DNA of 10,257 bases, taken from a virus. Lineage: Duplodnaviria > Heunggongvirae > Uroviricota > Caudoviricetes. Within the stretch, counting starts at the first letter, position 1. Every line of letters starts with the position of its first letter. The stretch lies in IMG/VR virus record IMGVR_UViG_3300002854_000123, positions 1 to 10,257 of that record; one strand, given 5' to 3'. The notes beneath the pieces are model-generated. The model was not told where the DNA came from. It was given only the letters and a program-made list of their open reading frames with translations, and ran no database searches. A program made the position numbers and the translations under genes. Below are positions 1,725 to 6,278 of this stretch, one piece after another.

Positions 1725-3011
1725 ATGCTTTATAACACCGGCACCATCGCCGTTAATGGAAATACAGCAACCGGCACCGGCACGAACTGGACGGCACCCG
1801 CCAGCCAGGTTCGCGCTGGCCAGACGATTATCGTGATGTCTAACCCGGTGCAGCTGTTCCAGATTTCATCCGTGAACAGCGCGACGTCTTTGACGGTTAC
1901 GCCAGCTGCTTCCCCGGCGCTGAGCGGCCAGAAGTATGGAATCCTGGTGTCAGACAATATCTCAGTCGACGGCCTGGCACAGGCCATGTCGCAGCTCATC
2001 AAAGAGTATGACGAGAACATCGGCGCGTGGGAGACGTTCGCCACTACCTCAGCAAACCAGAGCATCACGGTTACCATCAATGGCACCCCTGTTACGATCC
2101 CCGGCATCGGTAAACTGGCGCAGAAAGGGAGTAACGGTGCGCTGGCTGTTGCTGACGGCGGAACCGGAGCAACAAAGGCAGAAGACGCTCGCACAAACCT
2201 CGGTTTAGGAAGTAGTGCGTTGAAGAATTTGCAAAGCACAACCGAGGATAAAACGACTGGGGCTGTTTTGCAGGTCGGCTCCTTCGGTTTGGGTGCAGAG
2301 GCACCAGTTATTCCTGCCAATGATGCTAACCAAATTACTGGCTATAACGGTTTTGTTTCAGGTGCTGGGGCTCCTGGAACGAACTGGGTAAACGTATACG
2401 GCCCTATGCTCGTTATGAGGAGAATCAGTGCCGTTGCTCAGGTCCAGGTAAACGCTGTGGGTGGACTGGCATCACGCTACGGTCTGGTTACGGACATGAC
2501 CGTTAACAATGGCGGGGCGTGGTGCGTTCACTGGCATGACAGAAACACAACTGTGGACTCAAGCGGGTTCATAAAACGGGCTTCGCCTATCGTTAAGTTG
2601 TTTTCTGATGGAGGCTACGAAACAAATGATGAATCTGAGGGGTGCACAGTTCGCCGTATCGAAACAGGCCAATATCTTATAGAAGGATGTCATGGCCTGA
2701 ATGCAGAGGCTATTTGGGGCGGGGTTGATGGTGGTTTTGAGATCCCCTCAGACCGTAATAAACAGCCGCTGGTATGGCTGGATTATGAGGTAAATGCTGA
2801 TGGTTCGGTGTTGGTTAAAACGTATCATCGAGCACACCCCGAAGCGCCGACGTTCGCCAGGAATGAACTGCAGGGTATCAACGACGGCGACCCAATCGAC
2901 ATTCCCCGCGATCAGTTTGTGTCCGTGCGTGTCGAAATGCCTGGCGATTCTGTATACAACCAGAAACTCAGAGCCGTAGAGCTAATCCTTGCTACTGATG
3001 AAGGTGAATAA
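1725..3011 (+). CDS. Phage tail-fibre protein: N-terminal virion-attachment domain (about 1725-2201) fused to C-terminal cassette 1 (2202-3011)
   Basis: ATG at 1725 is preceded by GGAGA at 1715-1719 (the ORF-track start at 1710 is TTG). The N-terminus MLYNTGTIAVNGNTATGTGTNW is tail-fibre-like. Crossover site A is internal, at the NLGLGSSA hinge. The TAA stop at 3009-3011 lies inside crossover site B. Confidence 0.8.
   Translation: MLYNTGTIAVNGNTATGTGTNWTAPASQVRAGQTIIVMSNPVQLFQISSVNSATSLTVTPAASPALSGQKYGILVSDNISVDGLAQAMSQLIKEYDENIGAWETFATTSANQSITVTINGTPVTIPGIGKLAQKGSNGALAVADGGTGATKAEDARTNLGLGSSALKNLQSTTEDKTTGAVLQVGSFGLGAEAPVIPANDANQITGYNGFVSGAGAPGTNWVNVYGPMLVMRRISAVAQVQVNAVGGLASRYGLVTDMTVNNGGAWCVHWHDRNTTVDSSGFIKRASPIVKLFSDGGYETNDESEGCTVRRIETGQYLIEGCHGLNAEAIWGGVDGGFEIPSDRNKQPLVWLDYEVNADGSVLVKTYHRAHPEAPTFARNELQGINDGDPIDIPRDQFVSVRVEMPGDSVYNQKLRAVELILATDEGE
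2188..2213. other. Crossover site A (gix/hix/mix-like 26-bp site) inside the tail-fibre gene
   Basis: ctcgcacAAACC-TC-GGTTTaggaagt: inverted AAACC/GGTTT half-site cores around a central TC (2200-2201), as in Gin/Hin-family sites. Same orientation as site B, inverted relative to site C. Encodes N-L-G-L-G-S. Confidence 0.6.
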
Positions 3012-3028
3012 AGGTCGGTTTAGGAGAT
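3003..3028. other. Crossover site B (gix/mix-like), overlapping the tail-fibre stop codon
   Basis: ggtgaataaagg-TC-GGTTTaggagat. The right half-site matches sites A and C closely; the left half is degenerate. Central TC at 3015-3016. Confidence 0.65.
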
Positions 3029-3850
3029 AGCGTCACAGCCAACTTTGGAAGCCTCGAAATTGGAGCGAAGAAAGCCTCTTCTGCAAGCTTCGTTGATTTC
3101 CATTTTCTTGGCACTAACGACTATGACGCGCGAATCCTGTGCGGTGGTAATTCCAGTGGTGCCATGGGGAAAGGAGACTTTACATTTTACGCAGGGAGAT
3201 ACATTTTTATCGGCGATAGCTTTGAATTTCGTAATCCAATTACCTGCCAGAACAGCATAAGCGCATCAGCTAAAATCGCGACCAGTGCTGATATGGAATG
3301 CAAAACTAAAATTGCTGTTTTGGCCCCAGCTGACAATCAGAATGCCCACGTATGGTTCTATGGCACAGGTGGGGCATCCAGGGGGGTTATTTATTCCGGG
3401 CAGACAGGAATCATTCAGATCCGTCCTGACAACAATGATAATGGAGGCTCCAACGGATACTCTTTTGCGTTTGGGGCTGATGGTAAGTTCACCTGCGTCA
3501 CGATGAATCAGACTTCGGATGAACGAGTTAAATTCGACAAAGAACCCGTCAGTAACGCTCTGGAGAAGATCTGTTCACTGACGGGGTATACGTTTGGCAT
3601 TCAACTGACTGAATCGGAATCAATACGCAGCGCAGGTATCATCGCCCAGGAACTGGAGCGTGTTCTTCCTGTCGCGGTAAGTTCAGGCGGTACCGGAACA
3701 ACGCAGAATGGAGAAGAGATTAACGATCTCAAAACCGTGGACTACAGTGCGATGAGCGCCCTGTATGTTGAGGCCATGAAGGAGCTGGCCAACCGGGTAA
3801 AAAGCATTAAGAGTGAGCTTGCTGAACTCAAAGCCCGATCCGCGATATAG
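3017..3850 (+). CDS. Promoterless tail-fibre C-terminal cassette 2 with C-terminal intramolecular chaperone (peptidase S74-type) domain
   Basis: Frame is open from site B to TAG at 3848-3850, with no canonical start before the ATG at 3164. The cassette begins GLGDS in the same phase as site A. Contains SDERVK (from 3515) and GIIAQELERVLP, typical S74 autoproteolytic chaperone motifs, and ends in a coiled-coil-like tail. Confidence 0.65.
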   Translation, partial: GLGDSVTANFGSLEIGAKKASSASFVDFHFLGTNDYDARILCGGNSSGAMGKGDFTFYAGRYIFIGDSFEFRNPITCQNSISASAKIATSADMECKTKIAVLAPADNQNAHVWFYGTGGASRGVIYSGQTGIIQIRPDNNDNGGSNGYSFAFGADGKFTCVTMNQTSDERVKFDKEPVSNALEKICSLTGYTFGIQLTESESIRSAGIIAQELERVLPVAVSSGGTGTTQNGEEINDLKTVDYSAMSALYVEAMKELANRVKSIKSELAELKARSAI

Positions 3851-4064
3851 TGTATTAGCTCAGACTTGACCTGACAGTTTGATCTGGCAACAGACTATCA
3901 AAGCTGACCGTCTGCTTTGAGCGAGGAGAGGTAGTTCACTTTCGGGAAAACTCATCCACGTGCGATAGTCTCTAAATGAGAACAGGTCGTTAAGCTGGAT
4001 ACTTACACCCACCTCGGCGAAAGGCTGTACACTGATAACACTTATAGATGATTCTGAGTATTTT

Positions 4065-4847
4065 ATGATTTTATACAAATACATAGACAAAGCTTCATTA
4101 GGTCGGTTCTTCAAAGATGGATACATCTCCATAAAATTTACCCCGCACAGTGAGTTTAATGATCCTTTCGAAAGTTATGGATATGCACTTGATGATGCGT
4201 CAATTGAATCATTAACGATGAGGCATGAGATCAATAAAAACCTTGCCTGCTTATGTCTTTCAAAAAATCCACTCAACGTCTTGATGTGGTCACACTATGC
4301 TGAAAAGCATCAAGGATTTGTTGTAGCAATCGACATTGAGAAAGCAGGATACGATGATGAAGCAAAATGCCTGATTACAGCTCAGAAAGGTGATATTGAT
4401 TATTTAGGAAATAGAATAAAAAGCAAACTAAAAATCACGCAGGAAAATATCTATGATACTGATGTGATTAGTAAGCTATTGCTTACTAAATCATTGCATT
4501 GGAAATATGAAGAAGAAATCAGAATAATAAAAAAGACAGATTCATTACAGCAACAAGGTGCTGTTTTAATTGACAAAATATATGATCTTAATTCTATAGT
4601 CAGTATCTATATCGGGATTAACAACAGAGGAGTTGATGAAATCATTAGAAACAACAATGCATTAGAGACATTGATTTTAAACAAGACAGTACAGTTATAT
4701 CAGTGTGAATTTAAGAAAAGTACATGGGATCTCGACATAGAAGCTTATGAATACACCAAATACCCGCATGATATGCAGAGAATGGATGTATTTGATTCTG
4801 TCGCGAAGGTGTTGAGAGCAATGGAACGTAACCATATAGGCGATTGA
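4065..4847 (+). CDS. AT-rich cargo gene inside the invertible segment; DUF2971-like protein (260 aa), function unknown
   Basis: Clean ORF, visibly much more AT-rich than the flanking tail-fibre DNA. Motifs LYKY near the N-terminus, FNDPFE, LMWSHYAEKHQGF and WKYEEEIR match my recollection of the DUF2971 family; this needs an HMM check. Confidence 0.65.
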   Translation: MILYKYIDKASLGRFFKDGYISIKFTPHSEFNDPFESYGYALDDASIESLTMRHEINKNLACLCLSKNPLNVLMWSHYAEKHQGFVVAIDIEKAGYDDEAKCLITAQKGDIDYLGNRIKSKLKITQENIYDTDVISKLLLTKSLHWKYEEEIRIIKKTDSLQQQGAVLIDKIYDLNSIVSIYIGINNRGVDEIIRNNNALETLILNKTVQLYQCEFKKSTWDLDIEAYEYTKYPHDMQRMDVFDSVAKVLRAMERNHIGD

Positions 4848-4878
4848 GATTATTGATGGCGATTATCGTGTCAGAAAT

Positions 4879-4902
4879 GTCCGCTCCTGGCACAGAGCGG
4901 AC
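4879..4902 (-). terminator. Hairpin (8-bp stem), possible terminator between convergent cassette 3 and the DUF2971-like gene
   Basis: gtccgctc-ctggcaca-gagcggac; on the minus strand it is followed by a weak U-rich tract (auuucu). Lies about 70 nt downstream of the cassette 3 stop. Confidence 0.3.
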
Positions 4903-4969
4903 TGTCAGCTTAAGTTAAGCCCTGAGCAGTAACAGTGCCAAATCAAGTTTGAGCTAATACAGATATAGC

Positions 4970-5641
4970 TTACTGAGCTGAAACCTTAGTCGCAGCCTGT
5001 TCTTCCAAAACCCTGACGCGGATTGCCAGCGCTTTGATTGCTGCTAGCGCATCGAGCAAAATAGGGGTCTGATCAAGATGCAGTATGCCGCCTATTTCTT
5101 TCACGTATTCGGGATCAATCGTTTCAATCTGCTGTGATATTACCCCGCGTCGTGGGGTCTGCGTTTCATCGTCCTTAAAAGTGAAGTGTTTGAATTCCAT
5201 CCGGCAGATATTTAACAACGCCGCTTCCAGATCGAGGTCATCGCCAATGTTTTTCATTGTTCTGTCAGATACCGCTGAAGTCATGATCTCCTTCCACGGG
5301 CTCCAGGCATTGGTGTTGTAACCCCTGAAAAAAAATCGTCCAGCATCAGTTTGGCTTGGATATGGCAAACAAAACTGCGTTAGCGCTACGTCGGCAATAC
5401 GAACATAATTTTGAACATACCCATACCAACTTGAGATAGGTCCTGAGGTTGATTTCGACATATCCAAAAGTAAACGATAAGTTCCTGGCTCTGTAAGACT
5501 GTTGAAGTTTGTCCCATCAGGAGCAACTGCCGAGTCTGTTTTAAATACCCTGGCATCACCAGTAGGTAATCCAAATGCTCCCACTTGCATGACGTTCCCG
5601 GCTGCCGTTCCGACGTCCTTCGTAGCGCTACTTCCCAAACC
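4970..5641 (-). CDS. Promoterless tail-fibre C-terminal cassette 3 (inverted orientation) with C-terminal S74-type intramolecular chaperone domain
   Basis: Minus-strand frame is open from site C (stop at 5648-5650 just outside) to TAA at 4970-4972. Begins (N)VGLGSSATKDVG, homologous to the hinge NLGLGSSALK of the expressed gene. Contains SDRTMKNI and GVISQQIETIDPEYV motifs and a helical C-terminal tail. Confidence 0.65.
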   Translation of the reverse strand, partial: GLGSSATKDVGTAAGNVMQVGAFGLPTGDARVFKTDSAVAPDGTNFNSLTEPGTYRLLLDMSKSTSGPISSWYGYVQNYVRIADVALTQFCLPYPSQTDAGRFFFRGYNTNAWSPWKEIMTSAVSDRTMKNIGDDLDLEAALLNICRMEFKHFTFKDDETQTPRRGVISQQIETIDPEYVKEIGGILHLDQTPILLDALAAIKALAIRVRVLEEQAATKVSAQ

Positions 5642-5655
5642 GACGTTTTATAGAT
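5630..5655. other. Crossover site C (gix/mix-like), inverted relative to A and B, immediately upstream of the invertase gene
   Basis: Top strand acttcccAAACC-GA-CGTTTTatagat; reverse complement atctatAAAACG-TC-GGTTTgggaagt aligns with sites A and B. Central dinucleotide at 5642-5643. Confidence 0.65.
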
Positions 5656-5720
5656 TGCCACGAGGCGGCCTGGCCGATAACTTCATCTGATTTTTTTGCA
5701 GAATTTATTGGGTGAAAAAT

Positions 5721-6278
5721 ATGCAAATTGGCTATGTAAGGGTGTCAACAAATGACCAAAATACGGATCTTCAGCGGCAAGCACTCGAACGCGTAGGATG
5801 TGAACAGATTTTCGAAGAAAAAATGAGCGGAACAGTGGCGAACCGGCCAGCGTTGAAAAAGCTTCTTAAGGCGCTGAATGAGGGGGATACGCTGGTAGTC
5901 TGGAAGCTGGATCGCCTTGGGCGCAGCATGCGGAATCTGGTGCTGCTGGTGGACGAACTCCGGCAGCGCGGCATCCACTTTAAGAGCCTCACTGACAGCA
6001 TCGACACATCAAGTCCGATGGGACGCTTCATCTTTCATATTATGTCAGCCCTGGCGGAAATGGAGAGGGAGTTGATTGTGGAACGCACCCGGGCAGGCCT
6101 GGCTGCAGCTCGTGAGAAAGGGAGAATCGGCGGCAGGCGTCCGAAGCTCACCCTGGAGCAATGGGCTCAGGCAGGGCGGTTGATAGCGAACGGCGTAGAC
6201 AGGAAGCAGGTAGCGATAATTTATGACGTTGCAGTGTGTACGCTTTATAAAAAGTTTCCTGCAGGGATAAAGCTGTAA
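5721..6278 (+). CDS. Serine recombinase, DNA invertase of the Gin/Hin/Pin/Cin/Min family (185 aa)
   Basis: MQIGYVRVSTNDQ (catalytic Ser in VRVST), LVVWKLDRLGRS, SLTDSIDTSSPMGRF, MERELIVERT and a C-terminal HTH (KQVAIIYDVAVCTLYKK) are hallmark invertase motifs. ATG at 5721 is preferred over the GTG at 5712 used by the ORF track. Confidence 0.9.
   Translation: MQIGYVRVSTNDQNTDLQRQALERVGCEQIFEEKMSGTVANRPALKKLLKALNEGDTLVVWKLDRLGRSMRNLVLLVDELRQRGIHFKSLTDSIDTSSPMGRFIFHIMSALAEMERELIVERTRAGLAAAREKGRIGGRRPKLTLEQWAQAGRLIANGVDRKQVAIIYDVAVCTLYKKFPAGIKL

What the first reader, a model, noticed from the sequence alone, without database searches (positions are those of the whole stretch)
2188..5655. Three-site Min/shufflon-like inversion system that can put three different C-terminal domains on one tail-fibre N-terminus
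Three related 26-bp sites are present, each with a central TC flanked by AAACC-like and GGTTT half-sites: A (2188-2213, inside the tail-fibre gene), B (3003-3028, at its stop codon) and C (5630-5655, inverted, upstream of the invertase). In all three the core TC occupies codon positions 2-3 and is followed by GGT-TTR-GGA (G-L-G) in the tail-fibre reading frame. Inversion A x C would therefore fuse N-terminal residues 1-159 in-frame to cassette 3 (...NLGLGSSATKDVG...). A subsequent A x B inversion would fuse cassette 2. In the present isomer cassette 1 is fused. This is a multi-site inversion architecture like the Min system of plasmid p15B, rather than the simple two-site G/C/P segments of Mu, P1 and e14. 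It predicts at least three host-range states from one prophage.
Basis: partly seen in the sequence, partly recalled or inferred. Interest (0 to 1): 0.85.

Follow-up and report, generated by a model that had tools for sequence, protein, structure and literature searches.

The report
Three-site invertible tail-fibre switch in prophage
This Enterobacter-type lambdoid prophage has a Gin-like invertase and three matching crossover sites that can put any of three receptor-binding ends on one tail-fibre gene. The finding is real, but it belongs to a family in which the same three-way switch was recently shown experimentally (phage FRphi), so it is a good example rather than a discovery.

Summary
Three 26-bp sites share the core TC and the right half GGTTTRGGA: A at 2188-2213, B at 3003-3028, and C at 5630-5655 on the minus strand. 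Each opens a G-L-G-initiated reading frame in the tail-fibre phase.

The neighbouring gene (5721-6278) encodes a serine invertase 76.5% identical to Mu Gin. Mu gix sites have the same TC core.

The multi-site interpretation is supported by comparison with relatives:
- Both predicted fusion proteins (N-terminus + cassette 2, N-terminus + cassette 3) exist full-length at 96-97% identity in Enterobacter genomes.
- The cassette-2 type is found behind A-, B- and C-type left halves in different prophages.
- Pairs of related prophages differ by inversions A x C, A x B and B x C, with breakpoints in the sites.

Simulation gives four isomers that express cassettes 1, 2 and 3 in the ratio 2:1:1.

This is not new. 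Walker et al. (Nat Microbiol 2026, PMC13418256) showed by long reads and a gin deletion that Enterobacter phage FRphi shuffles three tail-fibre C-termini at about 50/25/25%. FRphi-like loci carry these same site types and a 97%-identical invertase. In a sample not selected for a B site, 13 of 47 loci were clearly three-site.

Verdict: a real feature, a new member of a known kind. A side observation is that a candidate defence gene (DUF2971, PADLOC PDC-S31) sits inside the invertible segment.

The parts
1725..2201 (+). Constant 5' part of the side tail-fibre gene (residues 1-159, ending ...ARTNL). It lies outside the invertible DNA and supplies the promoter, the start codon and the attachment domain.
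   Evidence: ORF 1725-3011. The N-terminus is 77-98% identical in most related loci, down to 33-49% in a few, whatever cassette follows.
2188..2213 (+). Crossover site A: CTCGCACAAACC TC GGTTTAGGAAGT. It is the fixed site inside the expressed gene.
   Evidence: The A-type left half CTCGCNCAAACC is conserved in relatives. It resembles Mu gix TTATCCAAAACC TC GGTTTACAGGAA.
2202..3011 (+). Cassette 1, currently expressed. It has a Phage_tail_C_2 C-terminal domain and is the 'head' cassette that carries site B at its stop codon.
   Evidence: Pfam PF25670, E = 4.6e-60. Head cassettes in relatives end in ...GE* followed by AGG TC GGTTT.
3003..3028 (+). Crossover site B: GGTGAATAAAGG TC GGTTTAGGAGAT. 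It overlaps the stop codon of cassette 1 and lies in direct orientation to A.
   Evidence: A scan for the B-type sequence found 43 viral-contig loci, with B in either orientation relative to the constant part. Relatives show breakpoints at B.
3017..3850 (+). Cassette 2, silent in this isomer. It is 277 aa with no start codon of its own and has a C-terminal Peptidase_S74 intramolecular-chaperone domain.
   Evidence: Pfam PF13884, E = 8.5e-11. The constant part fused to cassette 2 exists as 436-aa proteins at 96% identity and 100% coverage (loci L005-L008).
3851..3945 (+). Conserved 3' flank of cassette 2, about 95 nt. It forms an inverted repeat with the 3' flank of cassette 3 and marks the left edge of the cargo slot.
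   Evidence: Inverted repeats I2, I3 and I5. The alignment across loci carrying different cargo is conserved for about 95 nt and then diverges.
4065..4847 (+). Cargo gene inside the invertible segment: a 260-aa DUF2971 protein that matches the candidate anti-phage defence family PDC-S31.
   Evidence: Pfam PF11185, E = 1.3e-9. PADLOC PDC-S31, E = 1.8e-26. The roughly 900-bp unit is 89% identical on Klebsiella and E. coli plasmids.
4876..4969 (-). Conserved 3' flank of cassette 3. It is the partner of 3851-3945 and marks the right edge of the cargo slot.
4970..5641 (-). Cassette 3, silent and inverted in this isomer. It is 223 aa with a Peptidase_S74 domain.
   Evidence: Pfam PF13884, E = 1.8e-8. 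The constant part fused to cassette 3 exists as 382-aa proteins at 93-97% identity and 100% coverage (L056).
5630..5655 (-). Crossover site C: ATCTATAAAACG TC GGTTTGGGAAGT (minus strand). It lies next to the invertase, and its left half is non-coding.
   Evidence: The C-type left half is conserved in more than 119 viral-contig loci.
5721..6278 (+). Serine DNA invertase of the Gin/Cin/Pin/Hin family (185 aa from the ATG at 5721; a GTG at 5712 is also possible).
   Evidence: Resolvase and HTH_7 domains. 76.5% identical to Mu Gin over 97% of its length. E = 1.5e-87 to the Gin structure 3UJ3, with the catalytic Ser aligned. 98% identical to 'Fin' of phage LLS.
5814..5828 (+). Fis-consensus-like 15-mer (GAAGAAAAAATGAGC) at nt 94-108 of the invertase gene. 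It is a possible half of a recombinational enhancer.
   Evidence: It sits at the same position as GAAGATAAATTAAGC in Mu gin. A second site was not found with the simple consensus, so its function is not shown.

Best explanation
This is a multi-site, Gin-type DNA inversion switch for the side tail fibre of a lambdoid prophage.

**Layout.** The prophage is integrated next to tRNA-Pro and yejM in an Enterobacter-like genome. One promoter-proximal constant gene part (residues 1-159) ends in crossover site A. Three promoterless 3' cassettes each begin with the same right half-site (GGT TTR GGA, encoding G-L-G) in the same codon phase. Cassette 1 follows A, cassette 2 follows B, and cassette 3 follows C on the other strand.

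**Inferred mechanism.** The adjacent serine invertase would pair two oppositely oriented sites, cut at the shared TC core, rotate and religate. Site B sits on the stop codon of cassette 1, so cassette 1 and whatever lies behind B travel as a tandem unit.
- A x C flips the whole 3.4-kb segment and fuses cassette 3.
- B x C swaps cassettes 2 and 3 behind cassette 1.
- A x B becomes possible once B has been inverted, and fuses cassette 2.

The result is four DNA isomers and three tail-fibre proteins (428, 436 and 382 aa) in an expected 2:1:1 ratio. Cassettes 2 and 3 carry their own S74 intramolecular chaperone, and no separate assembly gene is present in the segment.

**What is shown and what is inferred.** Shown here are the sites, the frames, the invertase family, the existence of all fusions, and all three inversion types among relatives. 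Inferred are activity in this particular prophage, Fis/enhancer dependence, and distinct receptors for each isoform.
For: - **Sites and statistics:**
- **In-frame cassettes:**
- **Invertase:** 76.5% identical to Gin, with Resolvase and HTH_7 domains and the catalytic Ser.
- **Mu gix:** same TC core and the same AAACC/GGTTT halves.
- **Predicted fusions exist:** constant part + cassette 2 at 96% identity and 100% coverage in E. ludwigii, E. mori and E. kobei; constant part + cassette 3 at 93-97% and 100% coverage in E. cloacae and a metagenome.
- **Cassettes move between sites:** cluster K0 (cassette 2) is found behind A in 5 loci, behind B in 6 and behind C in 5. K1 (cassette 3) is found behind B, C and A.
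- **Isomer pairs with breakpoints in the sites:** L004/L012 for A x C (97.5%), L042/L047 for A x B (97.4-99.7%), L003/L011 for B x C.
- **A relative in the inverted layout:** E. cloacae CP085080 (L056) has the arrangement A>c3 ... c2<B c1-like<C. This is the A x C-type counterpart of the window's layout.
- **Simulation:** four isomers with a 2:1:1 expression ratio.
- **Published experiment in the same kind of locus.** FRphi of Enterobacter sp. BIDMC93 shows three tail-fibre isoforms at about 50/25/25% by long reads, and a gin deletion abolishes the shuffling (PMC13418256). FRphi-like loci, with flagellin and a TnpB-like gene just after the invertase, have the same A/B/C sites and an invertase 97% identical to this one.
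Against: - **No direct evidence of inversion in this prophage.** Its exact proteins occur on a single contig of one metagenome, so no same-sample isomers could be examined.
- **Degenerate left halves.** B (AAAGG) and C (AAACG) depart from AAACC.
- **Enhancer unresolved.** Only one Fis-like 15-mer was found.
- **FRphi homology is indirect.** I could not obtain the FRphi sequence. Homology to it rests on FRphi-like loci that share its gene context, not on alignment to FRphi.
- **Some pairs are not close.** Two isomer pairs are only 88-96% identical, so cassette exchange by other routes cannot be excluded for those pairs.
- **A and B are direct repeats.** They could also mediate deletion of cassette 1. 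Loci L005-L008 look like the window minus cassette 1.
Confidence: 0.82

Rival explanations
1. The system is an ordinary two-site (A x C) G-segment-like switch. On this view B is only a conserved junction left where two cassettes were concatenated. Cassette 2 then rides along silently and is never expressed from this prophage.
For: - About half of the family is two-site: 24 of 47 loci are A>C<, as is phage LLS with its annotated IR-L and IR-R.
- B's left half matches AAACC at only 3 of 5 positions.
- B-type sites always follow one cassette family ending in ...GE*. Part of their conservation could therefore be coding conservation.
Against: - L042/L047 and L003/L011 differ by inversions whose breakpoints lie exactly at B.
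- The same cassette types occur behind A, B and C.
- Cassette 2 is an intact 277-aa frame with no stop codon, although it has no start codon of its own.
- FRphi produces three isoforms, not two, and all three depend on gin.
- The untranslated bases AGG TC after the stop codon are invariant.
Confidence: 0.07
2. The architecture is real but frozen in this prophage. The prophage would be cryptic or the invertase silent or inactive, so the window simply records one historical isomer.
For: - Only one arrangement of this exact sequence is on record.
- Several relatives have truncated invertases, for example L007, L018 and L049.
- The window does not show the rest of the prophage.
Against: - The invertase frame is intact and full-length, with the catalytic Ser.
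- All three sites keep the identical TC core and an intact right half.
- All three cassettes are open.
- The tail module upstream is intact: the C-terminus of J, a DUF6453 protein and the fibre gene.
Confidence: 0.1
3. The rearrangements seen among relatives come from RecA-dependent homologous recombination between the short repeats at cassette starts, not from site-specific recombination.
For: The repeats extend beyond 26 bp in some pairs. A and C share a 31-nt arm at 81% identity, and LLS is annotated with 57-nt inverted repeats.
Against: - A and B share only 21 nt at 81% identity, which is too short for efficient RecA recombination (established knowledge).
- In every locus a cassette joins an A-, B- or C-type left half exactly at the core, with no shifted junctions.
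- A Gin homologue is always adjacent.
- Deleting gin locks the FRphi locus.
Confidence: 0.02

Closest known systems
Tail-fibre 'shufflon' of Enterobacter phage FRphi (Walker, Richard et al., Nat Microbiol 2026; PMC13418256; bioRxiv 10.1101/2025.07.22.666180)
   Same: - It is a lambdoid siphophage of the Enterobacter cloacae complex.
- It has one N-terminal tail-fibre part, three alternative C-termini, and a downstream gin.
- Long reads show three isoforms at about 50/25/25%, which matches the 2:1:1 ratio expected from the A/B/C geometry here.
- A gin deletion locks the locus.
- FRphi-like loci (L042, L048) carry the same A/B/C site types and an invertase 97% identical to this one.
   Different: - This prophage has no fliC-tldR module after the invertase. 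It has DinI and small ORFs, then tRNA-Pro.
- Its three cassettes belong to different sequence clusters from those of the FRphi-like loci.
- It carries a DUF2971 cargo gene inside the segment.
- The text of the paper held here does not describe the crossover sites.
- I could not align directly to FRphi.
Min multiple-inversion system of plasmid p15B (Sandmeier et al. 1990, 1992; cited)
   Same: - One Din-family serine invertase acts on more than two crossover sites.
- A single constant 5' tail-fibre gene part is joined to several alternative 3' parts by overlapping inversions.
   Different: - From established knowledge, p15B is a P1-like plasmid prophage with six sites, with P1 S-type fibre genes and separate assembly genes.
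- Here there are three sites in a lambdoid side-fibre gene, and cassettes 2 and 3 carry S74 intramolecular chaperones.
- The region gave no megablast matches to P1-like plasmids.
- The Min sequence itself was not compared.
Two-site invertible segments: Mu G/Gin, P1 C/Cin, e14 P/Pin, and the annotated IR-L/IR-R + 'Fin' of lambdoid phage LLS
   Same: - The invertase is 76.5% identical to Gin and 98% identical to LLS Fin.
- gix has the same TC core and the same AAACC/GGTTT halves.
- The LLS inverted repeats are A- and C-type sites.
- As in Mu S, the crossover lies inside the fibre gene at the boundary between constant and variable parts.
   Different: - A third site on the stop codon of one cassette adds a third isoform and gives four isomers.
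- No U/U'-type assembly genes lie in the segment.
- The segment carries a cargo gene.
R64-type shufflons (Rci, sfx sites, pilV)
   Same: The logic is the same: one constant 5' part and several 3' ends chosen by multiple inversions. The FRphi authors use the word 'shufflon' for the tail-fibre locus.
   Different: Shufflons proper use the tyrosine recombinase Rci and 19-bp sfx repeats (established knowledge). The recombinase here is a serine invertase.

Membership tests
Gin/Cin/Pin/Hin (Din) serine DNA-invertase inversion systems | Small serine recombinase with an N-terminal catalytic domain containing the nucleophilic Ser and a C-terminal HTH | tested here: met
   Resolvase (E = 1.2e-50) and HTH_7 (E = 6e-13) domains. 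The protein aligns end to end with the Gin structure 3UJ3 at E = 1.5e-87, and the YVRVSTNDQ motif is conserved.
Gin/Cin/Pin/Hin (Din) serine DNA-invertase inversion systems | 26-bp crossover sites made of two imperfectly symmetric 12-bp halves around a 2-bp core that is identical in all partner sites | tested here: met
   A, B and C all have the core TC and the right half GGTTTRGGA. The left halves are AAACC, AAAGG and AAACG. Mu gix is TTATCCAAAACC TC GGTTTACAGGAA.
Gin/Cin/Pin/Hin (Din) serine DNA-invertase inversion systems | Partner sites in inverted orientation flanking the invertible DNA, with the invertase gene adjacent | tested here: met
   A(+)/C(-) and B(+)/C(-) are inverted pairs. The invertase gene starts 66 bp beyond C. 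A and B are direct repeats and become an inverted pair only after a first inversion.
Gin/Cin/Pin/Hin (Din) serine DNA-invertase inversion systems | Cis-acting recombinational enhancer with two Fis sites, located in the 5' part of the invertase gene in Gin, Cin and Hin | tested here: inconclusive
   One Fis-consensus-like 15-mer lies at nt 94-108, at the same position in Mu gin. No second site was found with the simple consensus. Fis dependence cannot be tested with these tools.
Gin/Cin/Pin/Hin (Din) serine DNA-invertase inversion systems | Inversion actually occurs, so that isomers coexist | not testable with these tools
   Only one contig carries this exact sequence. Indirect support comes from isomer pairs among relatives. 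Contig L047 also ends in a junction that belongs to a different isomer. Inversion has been shown experimentally for FRphi.
Multi-site tail-fibre inversion systems (Min of p15B; FRphi tail-fibre shufflon) | More than two crossover sites with the same core, served by one invertase | tested here: met
   Three sites are present. In a sample not selected for B, 13 of 47 loci are clearly three-site and a further 5 have a variant third site. Four-site loci also exist (L022, L034).
Multi-site tail-fibre inversion systems (Min of p15B; FRphi tail-fibre shufflon) | One constant 5' gene part plus several promoterless 3' cassettes, all starting at a site in the same codon phase | tested here: met
   TC occupies codon positions 2-3 and GLG follows in all three sites. 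Simulated inversions give complete 428-, 436- and 382-aa ORFs.
Multi-site tail-fibre inversion systems (Min of p15B; FRphi tail-fibre shufflon) | Every cassette can reach the expression site, so the fusions are observed | tested here: met
   Full-length fusions of the constant part with cassette 2 and with cassette 3 occur in other genomes at 96-97% identity. Cassettes are found behind all three left-half types.
Multi-site tail-fibre inversion systems (Min of p15B; FRphi tail-fibre shufflon) | Sequence homology to the FRphi locus itself | tested here: inconclusive
FRphi-like E. hormaechei loci, with flagellin and a 310-aa TnpB-like gene after the invertase, share the site types and a 97%-identical invertase. 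Accession look-ups in the paper's Table S1 found nothing.
Multi-site tail-fibre inversion systems (Min of p15B; FRphi tail-fibre shufflon) | Homology to p15B Min, meaning a P1-like context and P1 S-type fibre genes | tested here: not met
   The context is lambdoid, with J, a DUF6453 protein and a side fibre. The region gave no megablast match to P1-like plasmids. The locus works like Min but does not belong to that lineage. The Min protein itself was not aligned.
R64-type shufflon | Tyrosine recombinase Rci acting on sfx repeats | tested here: not met
   The recombinase belongs to the serine resolvase/invertase family.

The most novel reading that the evidence does not exclude
The convergent junction between cassettes 2 and 3 may be a dedicated cargo slot. 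It is bounded by two conserved 3' flanks of about 95 nt. Different prophages load this slot with different candidate anti-phage genes:
- here, DUF2971 (PADLOC PDC-S31);
- in L056, an AAA_15 ATPase pair;
- in L007, an MBL/LmuA-like protein;
- in L005, an unknown 704-aa protein.

The slot flips with every A x C, A x B or B x C event. Cargo expression, through read-through from the late tail-fibre transcript, could therefore be coupled to the host-range isoform. One invertase would then phase-vary both host range and a defence function.
Probability: 0.12. Interest if true: 0.55.

Novelty: new member of a known kind. Interest (0 to 1): 0.3.

Why it matters
The window is a clean, fully readable example of how a temperate phage encodes three host-range states in 3.5 kb. 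It also adds detail that the text of the FRphi paper held here does not give.
- It gives the three site classes: A inside the gene, B on a cassette's stop codon, and C next to the invertase.
- It shows that the geometry yields four isomers and a 2:1:1 isoform ratio.
- It shows that roughly a third of this prophage family in Enterobacter, E. coli and relatives is three-site or more.

In practice, genome assemblies of such lysogens freeze one arbitrary isomer, and annotators call the silent cassettes 'partial' or 'hypothetical' genes. Recognising the sites allows correct annotation and host-range prediction for prophages of clinically relevant Enterobacter. It is not a new mechanism.

Tried and rejected
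- **Same-sample isomers.** Exact-protein look-ups of the window's tail fibre and DUF2971 protein found only the source contig, JGI 3300002855 pct1_10000241. Within-sample heterogeneity could not be tested.
- **Direct link to FRphi.** Invertase accessions from my loci and their clusters are not in the paper's Table S1. That table is clustered, so the absence is uninformative. No FRphi sequence is in the supplement.
- **Reviews.** Johnson 2015 (PMC4384473) and Sandmeier 1992 (PMC206102) are not held. The gix sites were therefore read directly from the Mu genome, and statements about Min rest on established knowledge.
- **Enhancer.** A consensus scan found one Fis-like site at a position conserved with gin. 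The expected second site about 48 bp away was not found, so this stays inconclusive.
- **Loose palindrome search.** AAACCNNGGTTT with 2 mismatches is not enriched over shuffles. The specific signal is the core plus the right half.
- **Fourth site.** The look-alike at 2272-2297 was rejected. It has no AAACC-like left half, a relative has a different core (TT) there, and it encodes a conserved FGLG motif.
- **Promoters and terminators.** The scan was no better than shuffles and was not used.
- **E. coli genomes.** No close match covers the whole region: 0 of 5426 genomes reach 80% coverage. The host is Enterobacter-like, not E. coli.

Full report
**1. What is in the window**

The window comes from a 104-kb contig of JGI metagenome 3300002855. 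It covers the right end of a lambdoid prophage that abuts tRNA-Pro (8293-8369) and a yejM-like gene.

| Coordinates | Strand | Feature |
|---|---|---|
| 2-697 | + | C-terminus of the tip protein J (Phage_Tail_Tip) |
| 699-1664 | + | DUF6453 protein |
| 1725-3011 | + | Tail-fibre gene, 428 aa |
| 3017-3850 | + | Promoterless frame, cassette 2 |
| 4065-4847 | + | DUF2971 gene |
| 4970-5641 | - | Promoterless frame, cassette 3 |
| 5721-6278 | + | Serine recombinase gene |

The fibre's present C-terminus is a Phage_tail_C_2 domain. Cassettes 2 and 3 each end in a Peptidase_S74 intramolecular-chaperone domain.

**2.

- A, 2188-2213: CTCGCACAAACC TC GGTTTAGGAAGT
- B, 3003-3028: GGTGAATAAAGG TC GGTTTAGGAGAT
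- C, 5630-5655 on the minus strand: ATCTATAAAACG TC GGTTTGGGAAGT

TCGGTTTRGGA matches exactly at these three places, against 0.28 matches expected, and none of 200 shuffles reaches the observed count. B overlaps the stop codon TAA at 3009-3011.

In each site the TC fills codon positions 2-3 and GGT TTR GGA reads G-L-G in the cassette frame. The frames of cassettes 2 and 3 are closed just upstream of their sites.

**3. The recombinase and the sites are Gin-type**

The protein has Resolvase and HTH_7 domains. It is 76.5% identical to Mu Gin over its whole length and aligns end to end with the Gin crystal structure, including the catalytic serine motif.

Read from the Mu genome, gix is TTATCCAAAACC TC GGTTTACAGGAA. 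It has the same TC core and the same AAACC/GGTTT halves.

The lambdoid phage LLS carries a 98%-identical invertase, annotated 'Fin'. Its annotated IR-L and IR-R are A- and C-type sites, so LLS is the two-site version of this system. Its authors only inferred switching.

**4. Is B a working site? Comparative evidence**

A scan of viral contigs for the B-type sequence returned 43 loci. In these loci and in E. coli prophages the sites fall into three left-half classes:
- A, CTCGCNCAAACC, within the constant gene part;
- B, GGTGAATAAAGG, always on the stop codon of a cassette ending ...GE*;
- C, ATCTATAAAACG, non-coding and next to the invertase.

All have the same core and right half.

I clustered the cassettes at 85% or more amino-acid identity. 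The cassette-2 type (K0) lies behind A in 5 loci, behind B in 6 and behind C in 5. The cassette-3 type (K1) is found behind C, B and A. Many other clusters behave the same way. This is the pattern expected if strands are exchanged at the core among all three site classes.

Pairs of related prophages differ by precisely such inversions.

| Pair | Inversion | Identity | Detail |
|---|---|---|---|
| L004 vs L012 | A x C | 97.5% in the inverted segment; 86% (constant part) and 99% (invertase side) in the flanks | The inverted segment is 2.3 kb |
| L042 vs L047 | A x B | 97.4-99.7% | The B left half is joined to one cassette in L042 and to the other in L047 |
| L003 vs L011 | B x C | 88% in the segment, 99.9% in the invertase flank | |

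In each pair the alignment breakpoints overlap the 26-bp sites. Contig L047 also ends in a junction, the C left half joined to a cassette, that belongs to a different isomer. This suggests several isomers in that sample.

**5. The predicted proteins exist**

- Residues 1-159 fused to cassette 2 give a 436-aa protein. It is present full-length at 96% identity and 100% coverage in E. ludwigii, E. mori and E. kobei (loci).
- The fusion with cassette 3 gives a 382-aa protein. It is present at 93-97% identity and 100% coverage.
- One carrier is E. cloacae CP085080, with the layout A>c3 ... c2<B c1-like<C. This is the A x C counterpart of the window's layout.

**6. How it works**

Simulating every allowed inversion on the real sequence gives four isomers.

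| Number of isomers | Cassette expressed | Protein length |
|---|---|---|
| 2 | Cassette 1 | 428 aa |
| 1 | Cassette 2 | 436 aa |
| 1 | Cassette 3 | 382 aa |

B sits on the stop codon of cassette 1, so that 'head' cassette drags a second cassette behind it and is expressed in half of the isomers.

Fis/enhancer dependence is inferred from the family. A single Fis-like 15-mer lies at nt 94-108 of the invertase gene, at the same place as in gin. The second site was not identified.

**7. Comparison with what is known**

Walker, Richard et al. (Nat Microbiol 2026, PMC13418256; preprint July 2025) studied the lambdoid prophage FRphi of Enterobacter sp. BIDMC93. They report the following.
- Long reads show a 'tail fiber protein shufflon' with three C-terminal isoforms, C1 at about 50% and C2 and C3 at about 25% each.
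- The shuffling is abolished by deleting the downstream gin.
- Only isoform C2 could lysogenise the Enterobacter host strain, and the phage depends on the receptor FhuA.
- They note related loci with up to six paralogues.

Their 50/25/25 split is the 2:1:1 ratio predicted by the A/B/C geometry. This match is my inference, because the figure itself is not available to me.

Several of my loci (L042, L048, L027, L046, L015) have a flagellin gene just after the invertase. L042 also has a 310-aa TnpB-like gene there, which is the FRphi hallmark. The three of these loci that span the whole tail-fibre region (L042, L048, L027) carry the same three site classes, and in all five the invertase is 97-98% identical to the window's.

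I could not align to FRphi itself, so identity of the family is very likely but not proven.

In logic the system also matches Min of p15B, with one Din invertase and more than two sites. It is not of that lineage: the context is lambdoid, the cassettes carry S74 chaperones, and there are no P1-like matches. It is not an R64-type shufflon, because the recombinase is a serine type.

**8. How common it is**

I scanned for the C-type site, which does not select for B, and kept the 47 loci that span the region from the constant part to the invertase.

| Architecture | Loci |
|---|---|
| Two-site, A>C< | 24 |
| Three-site, A>B>C< | 9 |
| Three-site, A>B<C< | 4 |
| Three-site with a variant third site | 5 |
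| Incomplete patterns, A site (or all sites) not detected | 5 |

Both orientations of B occur. Three-site loci are therefore ordinary within this family.

**9. Verdict**

The mechanism is of a known kind and was recently demonstrated in a near relative. The window is a new member of that kind, and I set interest at about 0.3.

The residual novelty lies in the anatomy described here (the site classes, the stop-codon site, the four-isomer 2:1:1 logic) and in the cargo slot.

**10. Side observation: the cargo slot**

The two convergent cassettes end in homologous 3' flanks of about 95 nt, which form an inverted repeat. Between these flanks, different prophages carry different genes:
- here, a DUF2971 protein matching the candidate defence family PDC-S31 (E = 1.8e-26);
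- in L056, an AAA_15 ATPase plus a 309-aa protein;
- in L007, an MBL/LmuA-like 408-aa protein;
- in L005, an unknown 704-aa protein.

The DUF2971 unit is 89% identical on Klebsiella and E. coli plasmids. I did not test whether inversion affects cargo expression.

Noticed in passing
window 4002-4900 (gene 4065-4847, +): A DUF2971 gene sits inside the invertible segment and matches the PADLOC candidate defence family PDC-S31 (E = 1.8e-26). The roughly 900-bp unit is 89% identical on Klebsiella and E. coli plasmids and 78% identical in many E. coli chromosomes, so it looks like a mobile moron. It always stays downstream of cassette 2 and flips with the segment.
   Followed up: partly
window 3851-3945 and 4876-4969; L005 8306-8450 and 10870-11011; L056 8144-8290 and 10880-11023: The 3' flanks of cassettes 2 and 3 are homologous for about 95 nt, forming an inverted repeat with a GC-rich hairpin. 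They are conserved across loci, and similarity stops where the cargo begins. Relatives hold different cargo in the same slot: an unknown 704-aa protein in L005, an AAA_15 ATPase plus a 309-aa protein in L056, and a 408-aa MBL/LmuA-like protein in L007. This looks like a hotspot for candidate defence genes.
   Followed up: partly
window 2272-2297 (+): A fourth site-like sequence lies inside cassette 1 and encodes FGLG in frame: AGGTCGGCTCCT TC GGTTTGGGTGCA. It has the TC core and a good right half but no AAACC-like left half. A relative (L052) has core TT at the same place. It is probably a protein motif, but recombination with C would give an in-frame chimera.
   Followed up: partly
L047 1-105 versus L042 4442-4546: Metagenome contig L047 starts with 103 nt identical to the invertase-proximal flank and C left half, joined to a cassette that should follow A in that isomer. 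This junction belongs to a different isomer, which suggests the sample held several isomers and the assembler stitched them together.
   Followed up: partly
L005-L008 (for example L005 7001-8311) versus window 1725-3850: Two-cassette relatives (A>c2 ... c3<C, 96% identical) equal the window's locus minus cassette 1. This is what a deletion between the direct repeats A and B would leave. Alternatively, cassette 1 with its B site may have been acquired as a unit. I could not tell which.
   Followed up: no
L042 4-2599; also L048, L027, L046, L015, L029: Several relatives carry a flagellin gene just after the invertase. L042 also has a 310-aa TnpB-like (HTH_OrfB_IS605/OrfB_IS605) gene there, which is the fliC-tldR module of FRphi-type phages. 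The window's prophage lacks it and has a 125-aa unknown ORF, DinI and two small ORFs instead.
   Followed up: partly
window 8293-8369 (-) and 8441-10201 (-): tRNA-Pro (GGG) and a yejM-like gene lie immediately beyond the prophage end. The E. coli prophage in L003 sits at the same place, so tRNA-Pro is the likely attachment site.
   Followed up: no
window 3164-3850 and 4970-5284 as called in L009/L010: Gene callers annotate the silent cassettes as short independent genes (228 aa and 104 aa) starting at internal ATGs. RefSeq marks homologous cassettes as 'incomplete' pseudogenes (L003, L004). This is a systematic mis-annotation caused by the inversion design.
   Followed up: no
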